Origin: Rhodospirillales bacterium
GTDB taxonomy: Bacteria > Pseudomonadota > Alphaproteobacteria > SP197
Assembly (NCBI GenBank): GCA_014323865.1
Contig: JACONG010000004.1
Coordinates: 27,325 to 91,324, forward strand
DNA: 64,000 nt
Reading direction: 5' to 3'
The first letter of the stretch is position 1; every line of letters begins with the position of its first letter. Both the position numbers and the translations under genes were made by a program. The notes beneath the pieces were generated by a model. It was not told the origin of the DNA. It was given only the letters and a program-made list of their open reading frames with translations, and did no database searches. This document shows, piece after piece, positions 1,676 to 60,643 of the stretch.

Positions 1676-1975
1676 TCAGGCGGAGGGTCCAGCCTCGGCC
1701 TGCCGTTGCCTCGCTTCCCAGAGGTCGTCGCGGGTCACCGGTATGGCGTCCCGCTCGCGTCCCACCTGCAGGTGAAGCACCGCGTTCGAGCCGTGGCGGA
1801 ACACTCCGGCGGCGGCGGCGAGATAGGGCTCCCACATGCGGCAGAAGCGTTCGTTCATCATCGCGGCGGCCTCGTCGCGATGTTCGGCGAAGCGCTCAGC
1901 CCAGTGCTGCAGGGTCAGCGCGTCGTGCAGGCGCAACACCTCGGCATCGAACATGGCGTCACTTGTCATGAACAA
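1676..1975 (-). pseudogene. C-terminal fragment of a cyclopropane-fatty-acyl-phospholipid synthase-like (Cfa/Mycolic-acid MTase family) gene
   Basis: The 99-aa ORF ends in ...FCRMWEPYLAAAAGVFRHG, matching the conserved C-terminal RMWEYYLAYCEAGF block of Cfa-family SAM methyltransferases. The N-terminal two-thirds is absent. The fragment abuts the low-GC islet. Confidence 0.5.
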
Positions 1976-2041
1976 TGGGCGCTTGTCTTCCTTGCAGAGT
2001 GGAGCTATAACGCTTCTGAGCTACATCAATCGAGGCTAAAA

Positions 2042-3148
2042 ATGGCGACTGAAGTGCGCGACGCTGTTCCTGAAAAGGAGAATGATGATCTTGACTTCAA
2101 AAAAGAAGAAGATGATGAGCTTCACGTCGAATATGACATAGCCAATTATCCATCCGACTACACACTCAGTGTCATTCATGAGATGTGGAAGAATGACGAT
2201 ATTGAAATACCTGAGTTTCAACGCAACTTTGTTTGGACAATTAAGCAGTCATCTCTACTAATCGAATCGTTCCTGAAGGGATTACCAGTCCCTCAGCTAT
2301 TCTTTTACATTGATGATCAGCATAAGAATCTCGTGATTGATGGTCAGCAGAGAGTAATGAGTATTGTCTATTTTCTGGAAGGGTATTTTGGTCCAGAGAA
2401 CCAGACGGGGAGAAGGCAGGTCTTCAGGCTAACAGGATTGGATGAAACAAGCCCTTATCATAGGAAAACGTTCGCTGATCTATCTGAATCTCTGCAGCGC
2501 AAGTTCAAATCTCGGGTTCTACGTGTCGTAAATATTCGTCAAATGAAACCGGAAGGTAAGAACACGAGTATGTTTCATATCTTCGAAAGACTAAACACTG
2601 GTGGCACTCCTCTTCGACCTCAGGAAATTCGTAACTGTGTTTTTTCTGGAGATATTGTTGATCGACTCAAGGAGCTCAATGAGGACAAGAATTGGAGAAA
2701 TGTTATCGGAAAGGCCAACATAGATAAACATCAACGAGATGTTGAGATGGTGTTGCGTGTTTTGGCGCTTGCTGATGGTCACATGAACTATCAAAAGCCA
2801 ATGAAAGAGTTTTTGAACAAGTATATGGATTCTAACAGAAATGGCACGAGTAAAGAGTTTCGGAAACTCCACAAAGATTTCTTGTGTGTTACAGAAATTC
2901 TTGATGAGCATGGCGGTAAACGTGTTTTCCATGTTCACGGCCCAATTAACCGAGCTGCCATGGACTGCATATTTGCTTCGATGTTAATTCATTTGGACAG
3001 AAGAGAGGATTGGAGTAAGCTGTCAAGTCAGATTGAACAGCTATACAAAAATGAAGAATTTCGATCTTGTATTTTCTCTAATACAAGTGACCCAAATATA
3101 GTAAAAAAACGAATGGAAATTGCCTTGGAGTGCATCGGGGCTGAATAA
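2042..3148 (+). CDS. DUF262 (ParB-like, GmrSD N-terminal-type) domain protein
   Basis: The ATG at 2042 sits at the onset of an AT-rich stretch, with GAGG upstream. Motifs FQRNFVW...LIESFLKGLPVPQLFFY...LVIDGQQRV: DGQQR is the hallmark of DUF262. No DUF1524/HNH half is present in this protein. Confidence 0.75.
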   Translation: MATEVRDAVPEKENDDLDFKKEEDDELHVEYDIANYPSDYTLSVIHEMWKNDDIEIPEFQRNFVWTIKQSSLLIESFLKGLPVPQLFFYIDDQHKNLVIDGQQRVMSIVYFLEGYFGPENQTGRRQVFRLTGLDETSPYHRKTFADLSESLQRKFKSRVLRVVNIRQMKPEGKNTSMFHIFERLNTGGTPLRPQEIRNCVFSGDIVDRLKELNEDKNWRNVIGKANIDKHQRDVEMVLRVLALADGHMNYQKPMKEFLNKYMDSNRNGTSKEFRKLHKDFLCVTEILDEHGGKRVFHVHGPINRAAMDCIFASMLIHLDRREDWSKLSSQIEQLYKNEEFRSCIFSNTSDPNIVKKRMEIALECIGAE

Positions 3149-3154
3149 TGTCAT

Positions 3155-3652
3155 ATGAGGAAAAAATTTAGGCTTGCTGATGACTCTCTCCTTCATCTTT
3201 ATGGTCTAATAGATTTGATCGATGATGAGCTTATCAAGCGAAACTACTTGGGGTTCATCTCTGTCTCGGCAGTGACTGCTTGCGAGTTGGCAATAAAGGA
3301 GATCTTTTACGAGTTCGGGGACGATGAGAGCGAATTACTAGGAACGGTCACTCGAAACATATTCCATAAGATAAATGGTCGAATTGCGCCCAATCATTTA
3401 TATAATCATATTTCATGCTTCGGTAAAAAATATGTGGACATATTCAAAGAGAGGCTTCGCTCAACAAATGAGAAGACGCTTCAAGAGTCAGGTGTTAATA
3501 TAATAGAAAGCTATAAATCATTGGTTGACTGCCGAAATCGTTTCGTACATGAAGGTGAAATACTTGACACTATTACCTACGATGAACTAAAGAGATCTTA
3601 TGATTCAGGAAAATCGGTTGTTCACTGCCTTTCGGATTCAATGGTGCGATAG
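3155..3652 (+). CDS. HEPN-like protein (Rx4H motif) partnered with the DUF262 gene
   Basis: 165-aa ORF starting 7 nt after the DUF262 stop, with similar low GC. The C-terminal CRNRFVHEGE fits the HEPN R-x4-6-H motif. The protein is predicted all-alpha. This resembles HEPN families reported next to DUF262 genes. Confidence 0.5.
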   Translation: MRKKFRLADDSLLHLYGLIDLIDDELIKRNYLGFISVSAVTACELAIKEIFYEFGDDESELLGTVTRNIFHKINGRIAPNHLYNHISCFGKKYVDIFKERLRSTNEKTLQESGVNIIESYKSLVDCRNRFVHEGEILDTITYDELKRSYDSGKSVVHCLSDSMVR

Positions 3653-56767: not shown

Positions 56768-57316
56768 ATGGTCGATGACAGGGAGCCCAGGGGGCCAATC
56801 AACAGGTCGGTGCCGCCGGGTGACAACAGGGAACGGCTGGTCTGCAACGACTGCGGTTTCATCCTCTACGCCAACCCCAAGGTGGTGGTGGGCAGTGTCG
56901 CGCAGTGGGACGGCAGAATTCTCCTGGGTCGGCGCGCCATCGAGCCGCGCAGCGGTTTCTGGACCCTGCCCGCCGGTTACCTCGAGAACGGCGAGACGAC
57001 CGAGCGGGGCGCCTTGCGCGAGGCGCGCGAGGAGACCGGTGCCGACCTGCGGCTTGATCGCCTGCTCGCCGTTTACAACATCCCGCGCATCGGCCAGGTG
57101 CAGGTGATCTATGCCGCGAGCCTGCTGTCACCGGAGATCGCCGCCCGGCAGGAAACGCTTGAGGTCGGGCTCTTCGCCTGGGACGACGTGCCATGGCAGG
57201 AGCTCGCCTTCCCGTCGGTCCACTGGGCGCTCAACCACTGGCGCGAGGCGCAGGACACCGGCGACATGACCGCCCGCACCAATCCGCCGGGCGACCTGGG
57301 CGAATTTGCCGCTTGA
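56768..57316 (+). CDS. NUDIX hydrolase
   Basis: NUDIX box GFWTLPAGYLENGETTERGALREAREETG. Upstream CNDCGF suggests a small zinc-ribbon. Confidence 0.8.
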   Translation: MVDDREPRGPINRSVPPGDNRERLVCNDCGFILYANPKVVVGSVAQWDGRILLGRRAIEPRSGFWTLPAGYLENGETTERGALREAREETGADLRLDRLLAVYNIPRIGQVQVIYAASLLSPEIAARQETLEVGLFAWDDVPWQELAFPSVHWALNHWREAQDTGDMTARTNPPGDLGEFAA

Positions 57317-57400
57317 CCCTCCTTGTCGTTTCGTGTTGTACTAGGGCTCTGGATAGTCTATATGAGGCGACACTAGAAACGGCAACTTAGGAGTATACCG

Positions 57401-57810
57401 ATGCCAGCACTTCACGATTATCGGCTGTTCATAAGCCATGCTTGGACATATGGCGGAGCATATGACCGCATGATTTCCTTTCTTGATAATGCTAACAACT
57501 TCAAGTACAGCAACTACTCGGTACCCGTCAATAAGGCGTTCGAAGGAATGTCAAAACTCAGCTAGAGGAGCAGCTCAGACGTCAAATCAGGCCGGTTGAA
57601 GTCGTGATAATATTATCTGGCATGTATGTTTCTTACAGTGACTGGATTCAGTTTGAAATCGACTTTGCTGAATATCTCGGCAAACCGATCCTGGGCGTGC
57701 GGCCATGGAGTTCGTCAAGGATCCCCTCAGCGGTAACCCGTGCTGCGGATGAGATTGTGCGCTGGAACACCAGTTCTATCGTTGATGCTATAAGGAGGCT
57801 GGCGCGATGA
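57401..57810 (+). CDS. TIR-like (DUF1863/ThsB-type) domain protein, interrupted by a -1 frame change at an A4 tract (57553-57556)
   Basis: AGGAG lies 8 nt upstream of ATG 57401. Frame A gives MPALHDYRLFISHAWTYGGAYDRMISFLDNANNFKYSNYSVPVNKAFEGMSK..., then a stop. Frame B continues ...TQLEEQLRRQIRPVEVVIILSGMYVSYSDWIQFEIDFAEYLGKPILGVRPW.... Joined, this gives a roughly 135-aa TIR-like fold pattern (FISH...D, hydrophobic core strand VVIILS, S.W..E). The islet has about 43% GC. Confidence 0.55.
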
Positions 57811-58685
57811 CAAAGATCACATATCCAGCCATTTATGAAGCTGCCGATAAAGGGTCGAAGTCGGCACAATCTTGGTACTTAACTCTGGTAAGATTTGAGT
57901 ATTTGTTTCTGATTATCTTGGCCATACTTTCAATGGAGCTGTTTAACTCCGAATTGTATTATTTCGGCTTTGTTATGGTCCTGCTTACATCATTGGCAAT
58001 TTTGTTCTGGATGTGGTTTCGAAAGCCCGAACAAGCATGGTACCGCTGCCGAGCTCTTGCCGAATCAATAAAGACCATAAGCTGGCGATACATGATGCGG
58101 TCAGAGCCATTCGAGGATGCTCAGAGCGTTAGCGTGCCACGATCTGAACTGCGGAATATACTCAAAGGCTTGCTGTACAATAACGAGAACCTCGGAGAAC
58201 ATATTATTCAGCGAGACGATCAGCTCGATCAAGTTACCCATGAAATGGACACTGTACGAGAGTCTGAACTCGAAAGACGCAAGCACATATACTTGGAAGA
58301 GAGAATTAAAGAACAGCGCCTTTGGTATACAAAGAAAGCTTCCAGTAACAAAAAGTCATACAAATGCTGGATGTGTTTTTGTGTGTTGATTTACGTCGCT
58401 GCTTTCTTCCTAATCATCTTGCGCGCTATGTACTGGGATGAAAGCTGGCAAATCTGGCCGTTGGAGCCTCTTATTGTAATCGCATCTGCGATTGTCGGAT
58501 GGATTCAGATCAAGAAGTTCAACGAACTGACCGCAGCCTATACTTTGACTGCACACGAAATTGGATTCCTCCAAGCTGGAATAAGCGAAATTAACAATGA
58601 GAAAGAACTGTCAGATTTTGTGAATGAGGCTGAGCTCGCGTTCTCGAGAGAACATACCCAGTGGAAGGCCCGACAATCTAGCTAG
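57807..58685 (+). CDS. Membrane protein with two tandem SLATT (DUF4231-like, 2TM each) domains
   Basis: 292 aa. ATGA overlap with the TIR-like gene. TM pairs at about residues 28-70 and 205-250, each followed by an amphipathic W..YR..AE.IK....Y-type helix characteristic of SLATT domains. AT-rich codon usage. Confidence 0.55.
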   Translation: MTKITYPAIYEAADKGSKSAQSWYLTLVRFEYLFLIILAILSMELFNSELYYFGFVMVLLTSLAILFWMWFRKPEQAWYRCRALAESIKTISWRYMMRSEPFEDAQSVSVPRSELRNILKGLLYNNENLGEHIIQRDDQLDQVTHEMDTVRESELERRKHIYLEERIKEQRLWYTKKASSNKKSYKCWMCFCVLIYVAAFFLIILRAMYWDESWQIWPLEPLIVIASAIVGWIQIKKFNELTAAYTLTAHEIGFLQAGISEINNEKELSDFVNEAELAFSREHTQWKARQSS

Positions 58686-58697
58686 CGTTGCCGGGCG

Positions 58698-59327
58698 CTA
58701 CTGAACCTCGTCGATCCTGTCGACGATATGAGCGACGATGCCGTAGTCCCTGGCTTCCTCCGGACCCATCCAGTAGTTGCGGTCCGTGTCCTTCGCGACG
58801 CGTTCGATCGGCTGGCCGGTCTCTTCGGCAATGATGCGGTTGAGCCGGTCGCGCATCTTGAGGATTTCCCTGGCCTCGATGTCGATCTCGGTCGCCTTGC
58901 CGCCGATGCCGCCCATCGGCTGGTGCAGCAGAAAGCGCGTGTTGGGCGTGCAGTAGCGGTTGTCCTTCTCGGCCGAGAGATAGATGTGGGCGCCGGCGCT
59001 GGCGACCCATCCCGTGCCGATCGCCTTCACCGGGGCCGAAACGAAGCGGATCGTGTCGTGGATCGCATCACCCGATTCCACGTGGCCGCCGGGCGAGCTG
59101 ATCATCAGCCTGATCGGCTTGTCGCTTTCCTCGCTCATGGCGATCAGCTGGCCGCAGGTCTCGCGTGCGGCCTTCTCGTCGATCTCCCCGAACAACAGGA
59201 TCATGCGCGATTCGAAGAGGATCCTGGCCGCCGGACGGCTCCGGGGCTCCTTCTTCCCGGCCTTTTCGTCCTTGCCGTCGTCATCGTCGTCGTCGTCGGC
59301 AGCGTGGGGCAGGTCGAAATCGATCAT
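58698..59327 (-). CDS. clpP: ATP-dependent Clp protease proteolytic subunit (ClpP paralog) with an Asp-rich N-terminal extension
   Basis: ...RILFESRMILLFGEID...ISSPGGHVESGDAIHDTIRFV...GWVASAGAHIYLSAEK...LHQPMGG is canonical ClpP (Ser-His-Asp). N-terminal MIDFDLPHAADDDDDDDGKDEK. No clpX is adjacent. Confidence 0.75.
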   Translation of the reverse strand: MIDFDLPHAADDDDDDDGKDEKAGKKEPRSRPAARILFESRMILLFGEIDEKAARETCGQLIAMSEESDKPIRLMISSPGGHVESGDAIHDTIRFVSAPVKAIGTGWVASAGAHIYLSAEKDNRYCTPNTRFLLHQPMGGIGGKATEIDIEAREILKMRDRLNRIIAEETGQPIERVAKDTDRNYWMGPEEARDYGIVAHIVDRIDEVQ

Positions 59328-59397
59328 CGGGGTGTCCTGATTGCGGCGAAATCTCAAGGCCCCACATAGGAGCCGCGCCAGCCGAATGCAAGCTGAC

Positions 59398-60039
59398 TCA
59401 GGCGTCCTCAAGCTCCGCAAGCGGCAGGGAGACGCCGATCATGCAGTCGCGGGTGACGATGGAGGCGAGTGCGTCTTCGTCCCACCCCCCGGTGCCGGCG
59501 GGTCGGGCGGGCAGGACCATGTAGCGCATGTCGGCAGTGGAATCGTGGACCCGGATTTCGACGCTGTCGGGCAGATCGGTGCCGAACTCGGCCAGCACCT
59601 TGCGCGGTTCGACCGCGACGCGGGAGCGGTAGGCGCGTGCCTTGTACCAGGCCGGCGGGATGCCCAGGACGTAGCGCGGATAGCAGGAGCACAGCGTGCA
59701 GACGATGACGTTGTGGAGATTGCCGGTGTTCTCGACGACGATGAGTCGCGTCGGGCCGATCTCGAGGCCGAGCTCCCGCACCGCCGCACTGCCGTCGGCC
59801 AACAGACGTTGCTTGTAGGCCGGATCGGTCCAGGCGCGCGCAACGACCCGGGCACCACCGGTCGGCGAGATGGCATCCATGCGCTCGATCGCTCGGCGCT
59901 CGTCCTCGGCGCTGTAGACGCCCTTTTCGACCAGAAGTTCGCGCATGGCGCGGACCAGCAGCATGTGTTCGGTCTGACCGCCGGCGTCGTCGTCGGGCTG
60001 GAATGGGTGAGAATGCGCGTGGTCGCGGGTCTCGCTCAT
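59398..60039 (-). CDS. Nitrile hydratase alpha-subunit-like / thiocyanate hydrolase gamma-like metalloprotein (Co-type VCTLCSCYP motif)
   Basis: 213 aa. The metal-binding VCTLCSCYPRYVLG motif (C-T-L-C-S-C) is diagnostic for the NHase alpha / SCNase gamma family. Confidence 0.7.
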   Translation of the reverse strand: MSETRDHAHSHPFQPDDDAGGQTEHMLLVRAMRELLVEKGVYSAEDERRAIERMDAISPTGGARVVARAWTDPAYKQRLLADGSAAVRELGLEIGPTRLIVVENTGNLHNVIVCTLCSCYPRYVLGIPPAWYKARAYRSRVAVEPRKVLAEFGTDLPDSVEIRVHDSTADMRYMVLPARPAGTGGWDEDALASIVTRDCMIGVSLPLAELEDA

Positions 60040-60326
60040 GACGCCTGCTCCAGCCAGTTCTCGTAGACTTCGACCTCGACCGTGTCGGCCGCGACCTCCG
60101 CGCGCGTGCCCCACAGGTGGCCCATGGTGAAGCGCACCCGGTAGAGCGGCTGGTCGGGCTTGCCGTCGCCGCCATGGCCCAGGGTCTCGGGGTTGCCGAA
60201 TGTGCCGCAGATGCGCTCGACCACGCCGGTGCGGCCCTTGATGTAGTCGGGTGCGCGGTGGTGATGGCGCGGGTAGCGACGGACCACCGTGACCCGATCG
60301 CCGGGCGCGAAGCGCGGCCCGCTCAT
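60036..60326 (-). CDS. Nitrile hydratase beta-subunit C-terminal-half homolog (SCNase alpha-like)
   Basis: 96 aa. GDRVTVVRRYP...GHGGDGKPDQPLYRVRF...LWGTRA aligns with the C-terminal SH3-like half of NHase beta. ATGA overlap with the neighbouring gene. Confidence 0.6.
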   Translation of the reverse strand: MSGPRFAPGDRVTVVRRYPRHHHRAPDYIKGRTGVVERICGTFGNPETLGHGGDGKPDQPLYRVRFTMGHLWGTRAEVAADTVEVEVYENWLEQAS

Positions 60327-60643
60327 GATGCGGTCTCGCGCAGGGCGGCGATGCGCGCGGCGATCTCGTCCTCGGTGACGATGCCTTTCTCGACCATGAC
60401 GGTGCGGATCGATTCGATCCAGCGCTCGTAGTAGCTCATGCGGTCGTAGGCATCGGGCGGCAGGCTTTCGATACCGCGGCGCAGCTCGTCGACACGCATC
60501 GCGCCACGCTGCGGGTCGGCCAGCAGGATGAGCATGGCATCGACCTGCTTTTCCCAGTGGGCCAGCGCATGTTCGTGGCGCTCGATCTCACCGGCCTCGC
60601 GGCCCGCGAGATCGTGATGGGGACGATAGGGTTCTTCAGTCAT
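60323..60643 (-). CDS. Nitrile hydratase beta-subunit N-terminal-half homolog (SCNase beta-like)
   Basis: 106 aa. ...MSYYERWIESIRTVMVEKGIVTEDEI resembles the N-terminal helical half of NHase beta (SYYTHWL...). The order N-half / C-half / alpha mirrors scnB-scnA-scnC. Confidence 0.6.
   Translation of the reverse strand: MTEEPYRPHHDLAGREAGEIERHEHALAHWEKQVDAMLILLADPQRGAMRVDELRRGIESLPPDAYDRMSYYERWIESIRTVMVEKGIVTEDEIAARIAALRETAS

What the first reader, a model, noticed from the sequence alone, without database searches (positions are those of the whole stretch)
57320..58695. AT-rich islet encoding a TIR-like protein coupled to a tandem-SLATT membrane protein: a candidate uncharacterised defence / abortive-infection module
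Between the 3' ends of the NUDIX gene and clpP lies a roughly 1.37 kb block that is far AT-richer than its flanks (about 43% by eye, against 65-70%). It carries two genes with ATGA translational coupling. The first (57401) reads as a DUF1863/ThsB-style TIR-like domain (FISHAW..., hydrophobic VVIILSG strand, S.W..E). The second is a 292-aa protein built from two SLATT-like 2TM modules, each followed by the amphipathic W..YR..AE.IK helix. TIR/SLOG/SMODS plus SLATT pairings have been predicted bioinformatically as conflict systems with nucleotide-signal generators and membrane effectors. A compact TIR plus double-SLATT pair with no SIR2/SLOG partner would be a Thoeris-like variant that is, to my knowledge, not experimentally characterised. 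The TIR-like ORF is split by a -1 frame change exactly at an A4 homopolymer (57553-57556). This could be a sequencing error, a phase-variable or programmed frameshift, or an inactivating mutation in a toxic system.
Basis: partly seen in the sequence, partly recalled or inferred. Interest (0 to 1): 0.8.

Follow-up and report, generated by a model that had tools for sequence, protein, structure and literature searches.

The report
Frameshifted type VII Thoeris defence cassette
This is a small, horizontally acquired two-gene anti-phage system of an already described kind (type VII Thoeris: a TIR enzyme that makes cyclic ADP-ribose plus a SLATT membrane-killing protein), whose TIR gene is broken here by a single missing base, so it is a correctly read but ordinary finding.

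Summary
A 1,381-bp AT-rich insert (57317-58697; 46% GC against 64%) sits between the stop codons of a NUDIX gene and clpP. In the nearest relative those two stops are 4 nt apart. The insert carries two genes with an ATGA overlap. The first is a ThsB-type TIR, split by a one-base deletion at the A4 tract 57553-57556. The second is an intact 292-aa SLATT_3+SLATT_1 protein with four predicted TM helices.

The claim that the pair is uncharacterised is out of date. Yirmiya et al. (bioRxiv, Dec 2025) named TIR+SLATT operons type VII Thoeris (ThsB/ThsH). They showed phage defence and signalling through canonical cADPR. The repaired TIR is 38% identical (E 4e-30) to their validated Pseudohongiella ThsB. 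The SLATT protein is 36% identical over its full length (E 3e-56) to the effector encoded next to a 90%-identical relative of that ThsB, and has the same tandem-SLATT architecture.

All homologous loci checked have an unbroken thsB, and one has A5 where the window has A4. There is no conserved slip site and no stimulatory RNA structure, so programmed frameshifting is unlikely. Whether the deletion is real or an error in the metagenome-assembled genome (MAG) cannot be decided without reads.

Verdict: new member of a known kind; low to moderate interest.

The parts
57317..58697 (.). AT-rich inserted cassette (1,381 bp) between the NUDIX stop (57314-57316) and the clpP stop (58698-58700, minus strand)
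   Evidence: GC is 0.46 against 0.641 for the rest of the window. The closest relative, L005, has the same convergent NUDIX and clpP genes with only 4 nt between their stops and no insert. No flanking direct or inverted repeats were found.
57389..57393 (+). Shine-Dalgarno-like AGGAG, 7 nt upstream of the thsB ATG
   Evidence: Read directly from the sequence. No sigma-70 consensus promoter was found in 57317-57400.
57401..57565 (+). thsB 5' segment (residues 1-52 of the TIR protein, then 2 out-of-frame codons and TAG)
   Evidence: ORF list. It contains the FISHAW strand. A custom TIR HMM hits this ORF at 4.3e-19.
57553..57556 (+). A4 tract, the site of the one-base deletion that splits thsB
   Evidence: The DNA alignment shows a single-column gap here relative to four homologues. 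L085 reads CAAAAACTCA where the window reads CAAAACTCA. It is the only run of 4 or more A or T in thsB.
57556..57810 (+). thsB 3' segment in the -1 frame (residues 53-136, including the invariant Glu86 in WIQFEID), ending at TGA
   Evidence: The translation of this frame continues the homologue alignment without a gap. The TIR HMM hits it at 1.7e-41. Glu86 is invariant in 37 sequences.
57792..57798 (+). Shine-Dalgarno AAGGAGG for thsH, inside the 3' end of thsB
   Evidence: Read directly from the sequence.
57807..58685 (+). thsH: an intact 292-aa SLATT_3+SLATT_1 membrane effector, whose ATG overlaps the thsB TGA (ATGA)
   Evidence: Pfam and NCBIfam hits. Four TM segments. AF2 model with pLDDT 87.2 and pTM 0.81, all-helical. 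It is 100% identical to MBC6439004.1 from a Rhodospirillales MAG. It is 36% identical, E 3e-56, over its full length to the effector in L001.

Best explanation
The insert is a horizontally acquired type VII Thoeris anti-phage cassette, thsB-thsH.

How an intact system works (taken from Yirmiya et al. 2025, not shown here):
1. The small TIR protein ThsB is activated by phage infection. It converts NAD+ into canonical (N1-linked) cyclic ADP-ribose.
2. cADPR binds the cytoplasmic part of the four-TM tandem-SLATT protein ThsH.
3. ThsH then assembles into a membrane-breaching oligomer and stops growth of the infected cell (abortive infection).

In this window thsB has lost one A from an A5 run, leaving A4 at 57553-57556, while thsH is intact. 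As assembled, the cassette cannot make its signal and should be silent. No second lesion is present, so the deletion is either very recent or an assembly or sequencing error in the MAG.

Shown here: the domain identities, the homology to a validated system, the operon structure, the insertion site, and the single-base nature of the lesion. Inferred from the literature: the cADPR signal, the membrane-disruption mechanism and phage defence.
For: **Domains**
- ThsB_TIR 2.5e-13; SLATT_3 4.6e-36 plus SLATT_1 2.5e-33.
- PADLOC ThsB 3.7e-14; NCBIfam SLATT models.
- The repaired TIR folds confidently (pLDDT 81). It matches EcThsB 8wcf (TMq 0.70), B. cereus TIR 8fz9 (0.70) and MTH538.

**Link to validated systems**
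- The repaired ThsB is 38% identical, E 4e-30, to the Pseudohongiella nitratireducens type VII ThsB TIR domain listed in Table S1 of 10.64898/2025.12.03.692087.
- A 90%-identical relative of that TIR (P0241) sits just upstream of a 294-aa SLATT_3+SLATT_1 gene and overlaps it. That protein is 36% identical to the window's ThsH over residues 7-290, E 3e-56.
- The paper reports defence and cADPR-specific toxicity for three type VII systems with unrelated TIR clusters.

**Conserved pairing**
- The same ThsB-ThsH pair occurs in Azospirillum rugosum, Halomonas chromatireducens and metagenomic loci.
- 21 of 21 metagenomic loci carrying this ThsB clade have it directly upstream of thsH.

**Horizontal acquisition**
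- There is a GC contrast and an empty site in L005.
- The same module is 44% GC in a 70% GC Azospirillum genome.

**Single lesion**
- The protein alignment is gapless across the site.
- The repaired ThsB departs from consensus at 0 of 38 highly conserved columns.
- Glu86 is invariant.
Against: - thsB is not an open reading frame as assembled, so function in this organism is not shown.
- Identity to the validated proteins is only 36-38%. Neither the signal molecule nor defence has been tested for this subclade (136-aa ThsB).
- The window's ThsH departs from consensus at 11 of 110 highly conserved columns, the most of the 36 aligned sequences. Most of the changes are conservative. This could mean relaxed constraint, or only that it belongs to a divergent lineage.
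- The type VII description rests on a preprint.
- About a third of ThsH-like loci with room on both sides have no recognisable ThsB next to them. The effector family is therefore not used only by type VII Thoeris.
Confidence: 0.85

Rival explanations
1. The cassette is fully intact in the organism. The missing A is a consensus or assembly error in the metagenome-assembled genome, and the system is an active type VII Thoeris. This is a sub-case of the best explanation and differs only in the status of the lesion.
For: - The window comes from a MAG.
- The lesion lies in a homopolymer, the only run of 4 or more A or T in thsB.
- There is no other defect in either gene.
- A homologue has A5 at exactly this place.
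Against: - An A4/A5 run is short for a homopolymer error in short-read assemblies.
- The sequencing technology is unknown and no reads are available.
- ThsH is the most consensus-deviating sequence in its alignment.
Confidence: 0.4
2. The deletion is real and the cassette is a decaying remnant. thsB was inactivated, perhaps under selection against autoimmunity, and thsH persists because it is harmless without its signal.
For: - The frame is broken as assembled.
- ThsH shows 11 departures at 110 conserved columns, against a median of 3 in other sequences.
- Decay of a partner gene is seen elsewhere. In L086 a TIR of this clade is followed by a truncated gene carrying SLATT_1 only.
Against: - There is only one lesion.
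- Both Shine-Dalgarno sites, the ATGA coupling and every invariant residue are kept.
- Most ThsH departures are conservative. They are expected for the most divergent member of its set (50% identity to the others, against 56% among them).
Confidence: 0.4
3. The frame change is functional: either a programmed -1 ribosomal slip on A_AAA or phase variation that tunes or switches expression of a potentially toxic system.
For: A -1 slip of tRNA-Lys from AAA (57554-57556) to AAA (57553-55) would re-pair perfectly and give exactly the homologue-like protein (sequence). Defence systems are sometimes phase-variable (general knowledge).
Against: - All homologous thsB genes examined have a single open frame: 5 by DNA and 21 of 21 metagenomic loci by tblastn.
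- The A run is not conserved. Azospirillum reads ACAACAATT and Halomonas AGCGTCGCG.
- No stable RNA structure lies downstream (z +0.35).
- Four A's are too few for efficient transcriptional slippage or for repeat-mediated phase variation (general knowledge).
Confidence: 0.03
4. The pair is not a cADPR-signalling Thoeris. For example, this ThsB subclade might make a different nucleotide signal, or the TIR might act as an NAD+-depleting effector while the SLATT protein has an unrelated membrane role.
For: - Identity to the validated proteins is only 36-38%.
- Thoeris TIRs make several different ADPR isomers.
- ThsH-like genes also occur next to PLD, TPR-S-trypsin or CAP12-type TIR genes.
Against: - Three type VII systems with TIRs from three different clusters all produced cADPR.
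- Full-length collinear homology and the same operon layout as in L001.
- Tight translational coupling.
Confidence: 0.07

Closest known systems
Type VII Thoeris (ThsB + ThsH) of Pseudohongiella nitratireducens SCS-111, validated in Yirmiya et al., bioRxiv 10.64898/2025.12.03.692087
   Same: - A short ThsB_TIR protein (about 140 aa, FISHAW N-terminal strand, WIQ.EI catalytic motif) lies directly upstream of an effector of about 290 aa with SLATT_3+SLATT_1 and four TM helices, and overlaps it.
- ThsB is 38% identical, E 4e-30.
- ThsH is 36% identical, E 3e-56, to the effector next to a 90%-identical TIR relative.
   Different: - It belongs to a distinct subclade: 136 aa against 143-144 aa, lacking the 6-residue insert after residue 32.
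- thsB is frameshifted here.
- The host is a GC-rich Rhodospirillales MAG.
- The effector comparison used a close relative (L001), not the validated gene itself.
Type VII Thoeris of the Alteromonadales scaffold and of Bacillus licheniformis SCCB 37 (same paper)
   Same: Same system logic and the same SLATT-annotated effector class. cADPR is the signal.
   Different: Their TIRs belong to other sequence clusters (Table S1). The PDB relative of the Alteromonadales-type TIR (8fz9) matches the window's TIR only weakly by sequence (E 0.069), though it matches by fold (TMq 0.70).
Type I and type II Thoeris (ThsB with SIR2-SLOG ThsA, or with Macro-TM ThsC)
   Same: A ThsB-family TIR acts as infection sensor and signal generator, and a separate effector is activated by an ADPR-derived signal.
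   Different: The effector here is a SLATT protein. It has no SIR2, SLOG or Macro domain. Type VII signals through canonical cADPR rather than 3'cADPR or His-ADPR.
CBASS systems with 2TM/SLATT effectors (Burroughs et al. 2015 prediction; CBASS literature cited)
   Same: A SLATT membrane effector is thought to be activated by a nucleotide second messenger and to breach the membrane.
   Different: The cassette has no CD-NTase/SMODS cyclase. The signal generator is a TIR.

Membership tests
Type VII Thoeris (ThsB/ThsH) | A ThsB-type TIR domain protein as signal generator | tested here: met
   After repair of one base: Pfam PF08937 at 2.5e-13 and PADLOC ThsB at 3.7e-14. The AF2 model matches EcThsB 8wcf with TMq 0.70.
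Type VII Thoeris (ThsB/ThsH) | Catalytic glutamate of the TIR conserved | tested here: met
   Glu86 in WIQFEID is invariant in 37 aligned sequences, including relatives of the validated ThsB. That it is the catalytic residue is inferred from the family motif, not from a residue-level structural superposition.
Type VII Thoeris (ThsB/ThsH) | An adjacent, co-transcribed SLATT-domain membrane effector (ThsH) | tested here: met
   A 292-aa SLATT_3+SLATT_1 protein whose ATG overlaps the thsB stop. It has four TM segments.
Type VII Thoeris (ThsB/ThsH) | Sequence homology of both proteins to an experimentally validated type VII system | tested here: met
   ThsB is 38% identical, E 4e-30, to the Pseudohongiella TIR domain. 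ThsH is 36% identical, E 3e-56, to the effector beside a 90%-identical TIR relative.
Type VII Thoeris (ThsB/ThsH) | Both genes intact | tested here: not met
   thsB is split by a one-base deletion at 57553-57556. thsH is intact. The locus is therefore a type VII locus, but as assembled it is not a functional one.
Type VII Thoeris (ThsB/ThsH) | Phage-dependent production of canonical cADPR, cADPR-specific effector toxicity, and phage defence | not testable with these tools
   These are experimental properties, reported for other members in 10.64898/2025.12.03.692087.
Type I / II Thoeris | SIR2-SLOG (ThsA) or Macro-TM (ThsC) effector next to thsB | tested here: not met
   The insert holds only two genes. 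The effector has SLATT domains only. The flanking genes are NUDIX and ClpP, and these are also adjacent in the relative without the insert.
CBASS with SLATT effector | CD-NTase/SMODS nucleotidyltransferase in the operon | tested here: not met
   There is no such gene in the 1.38-kb insert.

The most novel reading that the evidence does not exclude
The deletion is real, yet the locus is not dead. One version is that rare -1 slippage on A_AAA supplies a trickle of full-length ThsB, keeping a toxic system at a safe level. The other is that the intact ThsH survives as an orphan cADPR receptor that answers signals made elsewhere, for example by phage or by neighbouring cells. Either would be a new regulatory mode for a Thoeris system.
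Probability: 0.04. Interest if true: 0.6.

Novelty: new member of a known kind. Interest (0 to 1): 0.25.

Why it matters
The locus adds one more natural example of type VII Thoeris, in an uncultured GC-rich Rhodospirillales genome. It shows that the cassette can move as a bare 1.4-kb two-gene unit, dropped precisely between two convergent stop codons with no integrase or repeats. The same AT-rich pair sits in a 70% GC Azospirillum genome.

The 136-aa ThsB subclade, with 561 relatives found, has not itself been tested. A repaired copy would be a reasonable extra test of whether cADPR signalling holds across the family.

For annotation, many proteins of this family are still labelled 'DUF4231 domain-containing protein' in public records and could be renamed ThsH. 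The finding opens no new question.

Tried and rejected
- **Exact look-up of the source contig.** The window's ThsH and P0001 were not on record in the gene index. The source was identified only through the cluster name and accession MBC6439004.1.
- **Insertion mechanism.** No meaningful direct or inverted repeats flank the insert. No upstream motif is shared with five homologous loci. No integrase lies nearby. How the cassette inserted remains unexplained.
- **Promoter and terminator scan.** Nothing convincing was found upstream of thsB or downstream of thsH.
- **Programmed frameshift.** No conserved slippery site and no downstream structure. Rejected.
- **Phage carriage.** A scan of viral contigs with the ThsH alignment found no relative.
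- **Solved structure for ThsH.** No sequence match and no Foldseek match in the PDB (best E 0.19, TM 0.26 or lower).
- **PADLOC (2023) on ThsH.** No model matches, because the library predates type VII.
- **Internal duplication of ThsH.** Direct alignment of the two halves is not significant.
- **Assembly error rate.** A first GC3-based gene list was made, but no search for other frameshifted genes in the window was carried out. The error rate of this assembly is therefore unassessed.
- **First tblastn survey.** It suggested that 44 of 65 ThsH-like loci lack a TIR. This partly reflected the use of a single TIR clade as query. A broader HMM found an adjacent ThsB in 42 of 80 loci, and 23 loci with room on both sides have none.

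Full report
**1. What is in the sequence**

The window is GC-rich (64%), but between about 57300 and 58700 the GC content falls to 0.40-0.50 in 200-nt windows. The block 57317-58697 is 46.0% GC against 64.1% for the rest.

Its left edge is the TGA of a NUDIX hydrolase gene (56768-57316, plus strand; Pfam NUDIX and Zn_ribbon_Nudix). Its right edge is the stop codon of a ClpP-family gene on the minus strand (58698-59420; CLP_protease 7e-60).

The block contains two plus-strand genes:
- The first starts at ATG 57401, behind an AGGAG motif. It runs 54 codons to TAG 57563-57565. The reading then continues one frame over, down to TGA 57808-57810.
- The second, 57807-58685, encodes 292 aa. Its ATG overlaps that TGA as ATGA, and an AAGGAGG motif lies 8 nt upstream.

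**2. Domain identities**

Inserting one A into the A4 tract gives a 136-aa protein.
- It hits Pfam ThsB_TIR (PF08937) at 2.5e-13 over residues 10-106.
- It hits the PADLOC ThsB model PDLC00418 at 3.7e-14.
- An AlphaFold2 model built with 36 homologues is confident (pLDDT 81, pTM 0.77) and has the alternating strand-helix layout of a TIR.
- Foldseek places it with EcThsB (8wcf, TMq 0.70), a Bacillus cereus TIR protein (8fz9, 0.70), MTH538 (1eiw) and the related N-deoxyribosyltransferase-like folds.
- By sequence the only clear PDB match is MTH538 (1.1e-7).

The 292-aa protein is a tandem SLATT protein.
- Pfam gives SLATT_3 (residues 7-159, 4.6e-36), SLATT_1 (residues 162-286, 2.5e-33) and DUF4231.
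- NCBIfam gives NF033610 (5e-44) and NF033634 (4.7e-34).
- Hydropathy gives four membrane segments in two hairpins with short loops: 22-46, 48-73, 184-211 and 215-235.
- The AF2 model is all-helical and confident (pLDDT 87.2, pTM 0.81).
- No solved structure resembles it.

**3. Frameshift**

The repaired protein aligns without a gap across the junction to fifteen homologues of 135-136 aa at 61-73% identity. The window reads EGMSKTQLEEQL; P0121 reads DKMNKAQLEEQI and P0125 reads ENLTKTQLQEEL.

At the DNA level the window has a single-column gap relative to its homologues. One homologue, L085, reads CAAAAACTCA exactly where the window reads CAAAACTCA. The lesion is therefore the loss of one A from an A5 run.

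Nothing else is wrong with thsB:
- All 17 invariant columns of a 37-sequence alignment are kept, including Glu86 in the WIQFEID motif.
- The window sequence departs from consensus at none of the 38 columns that are at least 85% conserved.

Nothing supports a programmed event:
- The A run is not conserved in Azospirillum or Halomonas.
- All 21 metagenomic loci with this ThsB clade have a single unbroken TIR reading frame.
- The RNA downstream folds no better than shuffled sequence (z +0.35).
- Four A's are too few for efficient transcriptional slippage or repeat-mediated phase variation (general knowledge).

A -1 slip of tRNA-Lys on A_AAA would yield the correct protein, so trace read-through cannot be excluded.

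The source is a metagenome-assembled genome. ThsH is 100% identical to MBC6439004.1, 'MAG: DUF4231 domain-containing protein [Rhodospirillales bacterium]', on a contig of 253,105 bp. Without reads I cannot tell a real, recent deletion from a consensus error.

**4. Horizontal acquisition and insertion site**

A scan of one genome per species with the NUDIX protein found L005 as the closest relative. L005 is a Rhodospirillaceae MAG with NUDIX 71% and ClpP 83% identical. There the same two genes converge with only 4 nt between their stop codons, and there is no TIR or SLATT gene. The 1,381 bp in the window are therefore an insertion placed exactly between two stop codons.

I found no flanking repeats, no integrase, and no upstream motif shared with other loci. 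How it inserted is unexplained.

The module is AT-rich elsewhere too: 44% GC in a 70% GC stretch of Azospirillum rugosum. In Halomonas chromatireducens it lies beside an integrase, an AlpA gene and two further TIR genes.

**5. What is already known**

[quoted passage not shown] The paper reports the following:
- It defines TIR plus SLATT-effector operons as type VII Thoeris, with effector ThsH.
- Three such systems defend against phage: an Alteromonadales scaffold, Pseudohongiella nitratireducens SCS-111 and Bacillus licheniformis SCCB 37.
- Their TIRs make canonical cADPR only upon infection.
- Added cADPR, but not 2'cADPR or 3'cADPR, arrests growth of cells carrying the system.
- AF3 models ThsH as a membrane-spanning oligomer with positively charged pockets between protomers.
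- Types VII and VIII together occur in about 2% of genomes.

A later preprint (10.64898/2026.04.20.719644) uses type VII Thoeris as a cADPR biosensor. Iyer, Burroughs and Aravind had already noted conserved TIR-SLATT neighbourhoods in phages of Firmicutes (PMC9503650).

**6. Direct comparison with a validated member**

Table S1 of the paper gives the TIR domain sequence of the validated Pseudohongiella ThsB. The repaired window protein is 38% identical to it over 133 residues, E 4e-30. They share the FISHAW strand, the SVP motif, MY..YS.WIQ.EID, KPIL.V.PW and V.WN.

A database search with that sequence found P0241, which is 90% identical. In locus L001, P0241 is followed by an overlapping 294-aa gene annotated SLATT_3, SLATT_1 and DUF4231. 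That protein aligns with the window's ThsH over residues 7-290 at 36% identity, E 3e-56.

The tandem-SLATT architecture is thus the ordinary ThsH architecture. All 120 listed homologues of the 922 found share it. The locus meets every testable membership criterion for type VII Thoeris except that thsB is not intact.

**7. Breadth of the pairing**

- The same ThsB clade and ThsH are adjacent in Azospirillum, Halomonas and L085.
- Among 80 metagenomic ThsH-like loci, a broad TIR HMM finds a ThsB next to thsH in 42: 29 upstream, 10 downstream and 3 in another orientation.
- 23 loci with room on both sides have none. Some of these carry PLD-like, TPR-S-trypsin or CAP12-type TIR genes instead.
- Several different ThsB clades pair with the same effector family, as the paper also reports.

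**8. Weak signals**

The window's ThsH departs from consensus at 11 of 110 highly conserved columns. That is the most in its 36-sequence alignment, where the median is 3 and the next highest is 8. Most changes are conservative (I/L, L/F, V/A), and the protein is also the most divergent in the set (50% against 56% mean identity). This is compatible with relaxed constraint after loss of thsB, or with simple divergence. I do not lean on it.

**9. Verdict**

The system has since been described and tested.

This is a new member of a known kind: a type VII Thoeris cassette of an untested ThsB subclade, inserted as a bare two-gene unit in a Rhodospirillales MAG. It carries a one-base deletion in thsB whose reality cannot be judged here. 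Interest is low to moderate.

Noticed in passing
window 1950-3650: A second AT-rich islet (1-kb GC 0.40-0.48) carries two plus-strand genes. The first, about 2018-3148 (376 aa), hits Pfam GmrSD_N/DUF262 at 6.6e-29 and over its full length the PADLOC models NsnA (4.2e-67) and PD-T4-2_A (5.5e-53). The second, 3155-3652 (165 aa), hits HEPN_RiboL-PSP at 1.8e-15 and has no PADLOC hit. It looks like another small acquired defence pair.
   Followed up: partly
L086 6001-8901 (ENA ERZ25073596 NODE_437): A ThsB of the window's clade (P0122) is followed, after a 390-nt gap, by a 144-aa gene carrying SLATT_1 only. This is apparently a truncated thsH. Then come a second ThsB_TIR gene, a 190-aa ORF and a TPR-S protein. 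It is a composite TIR island showing decay of the effector rather than of the TIR.
   Followed up: no
L004 5299-12262 (Halomonas chromatireducens CP014226.1): The thsB-thsH pair lies just downstream of a phage-type integrase and an AlpA gene. It is followed by two TIR_2-domain genes and later a Fic gene, which together form a mobile defence island.
   Followed up: no
L120, L128, L130 (upstream PLD-like 539 aa); L156-L158 (downstream TPR-S + trypsin 547 aa); L138 (downstream CAP12-PCTIR TIR): Some SLATT_3+SLATT_1 (ThsH-like) genes have no ThsB-type TIR beside them. They sit next to other defence-type genes, so the effector family may serve systems other than type VII Thoeris.
   Followed up: partly
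window 58698-59420 (minus strand): The longest ORF of the ClpP-family gene (TTG start) codes an N-terminal extension of about 60 residues before the Clp protease domain. The extension includes a run of seven aspartates (AADDDDDDDGKDEK). The true start codon was not determined.
   Followed up: no
window 59398-60643 (minus strand): Three consecutive ORFs downstream of clpP (238, 96 and 106 aa) looked by eye like nitrile-hydratase-type subunits. No profile search was run on them.
   Followed up: no
window 57807-58685: Public records label many proteins of this family 'DUF4231 domain-containing protein', and one JGI record calls a homologue 'archaellum biogenesis protein FlaJ'. These names predate the ThsH designation.
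   Followed up: no
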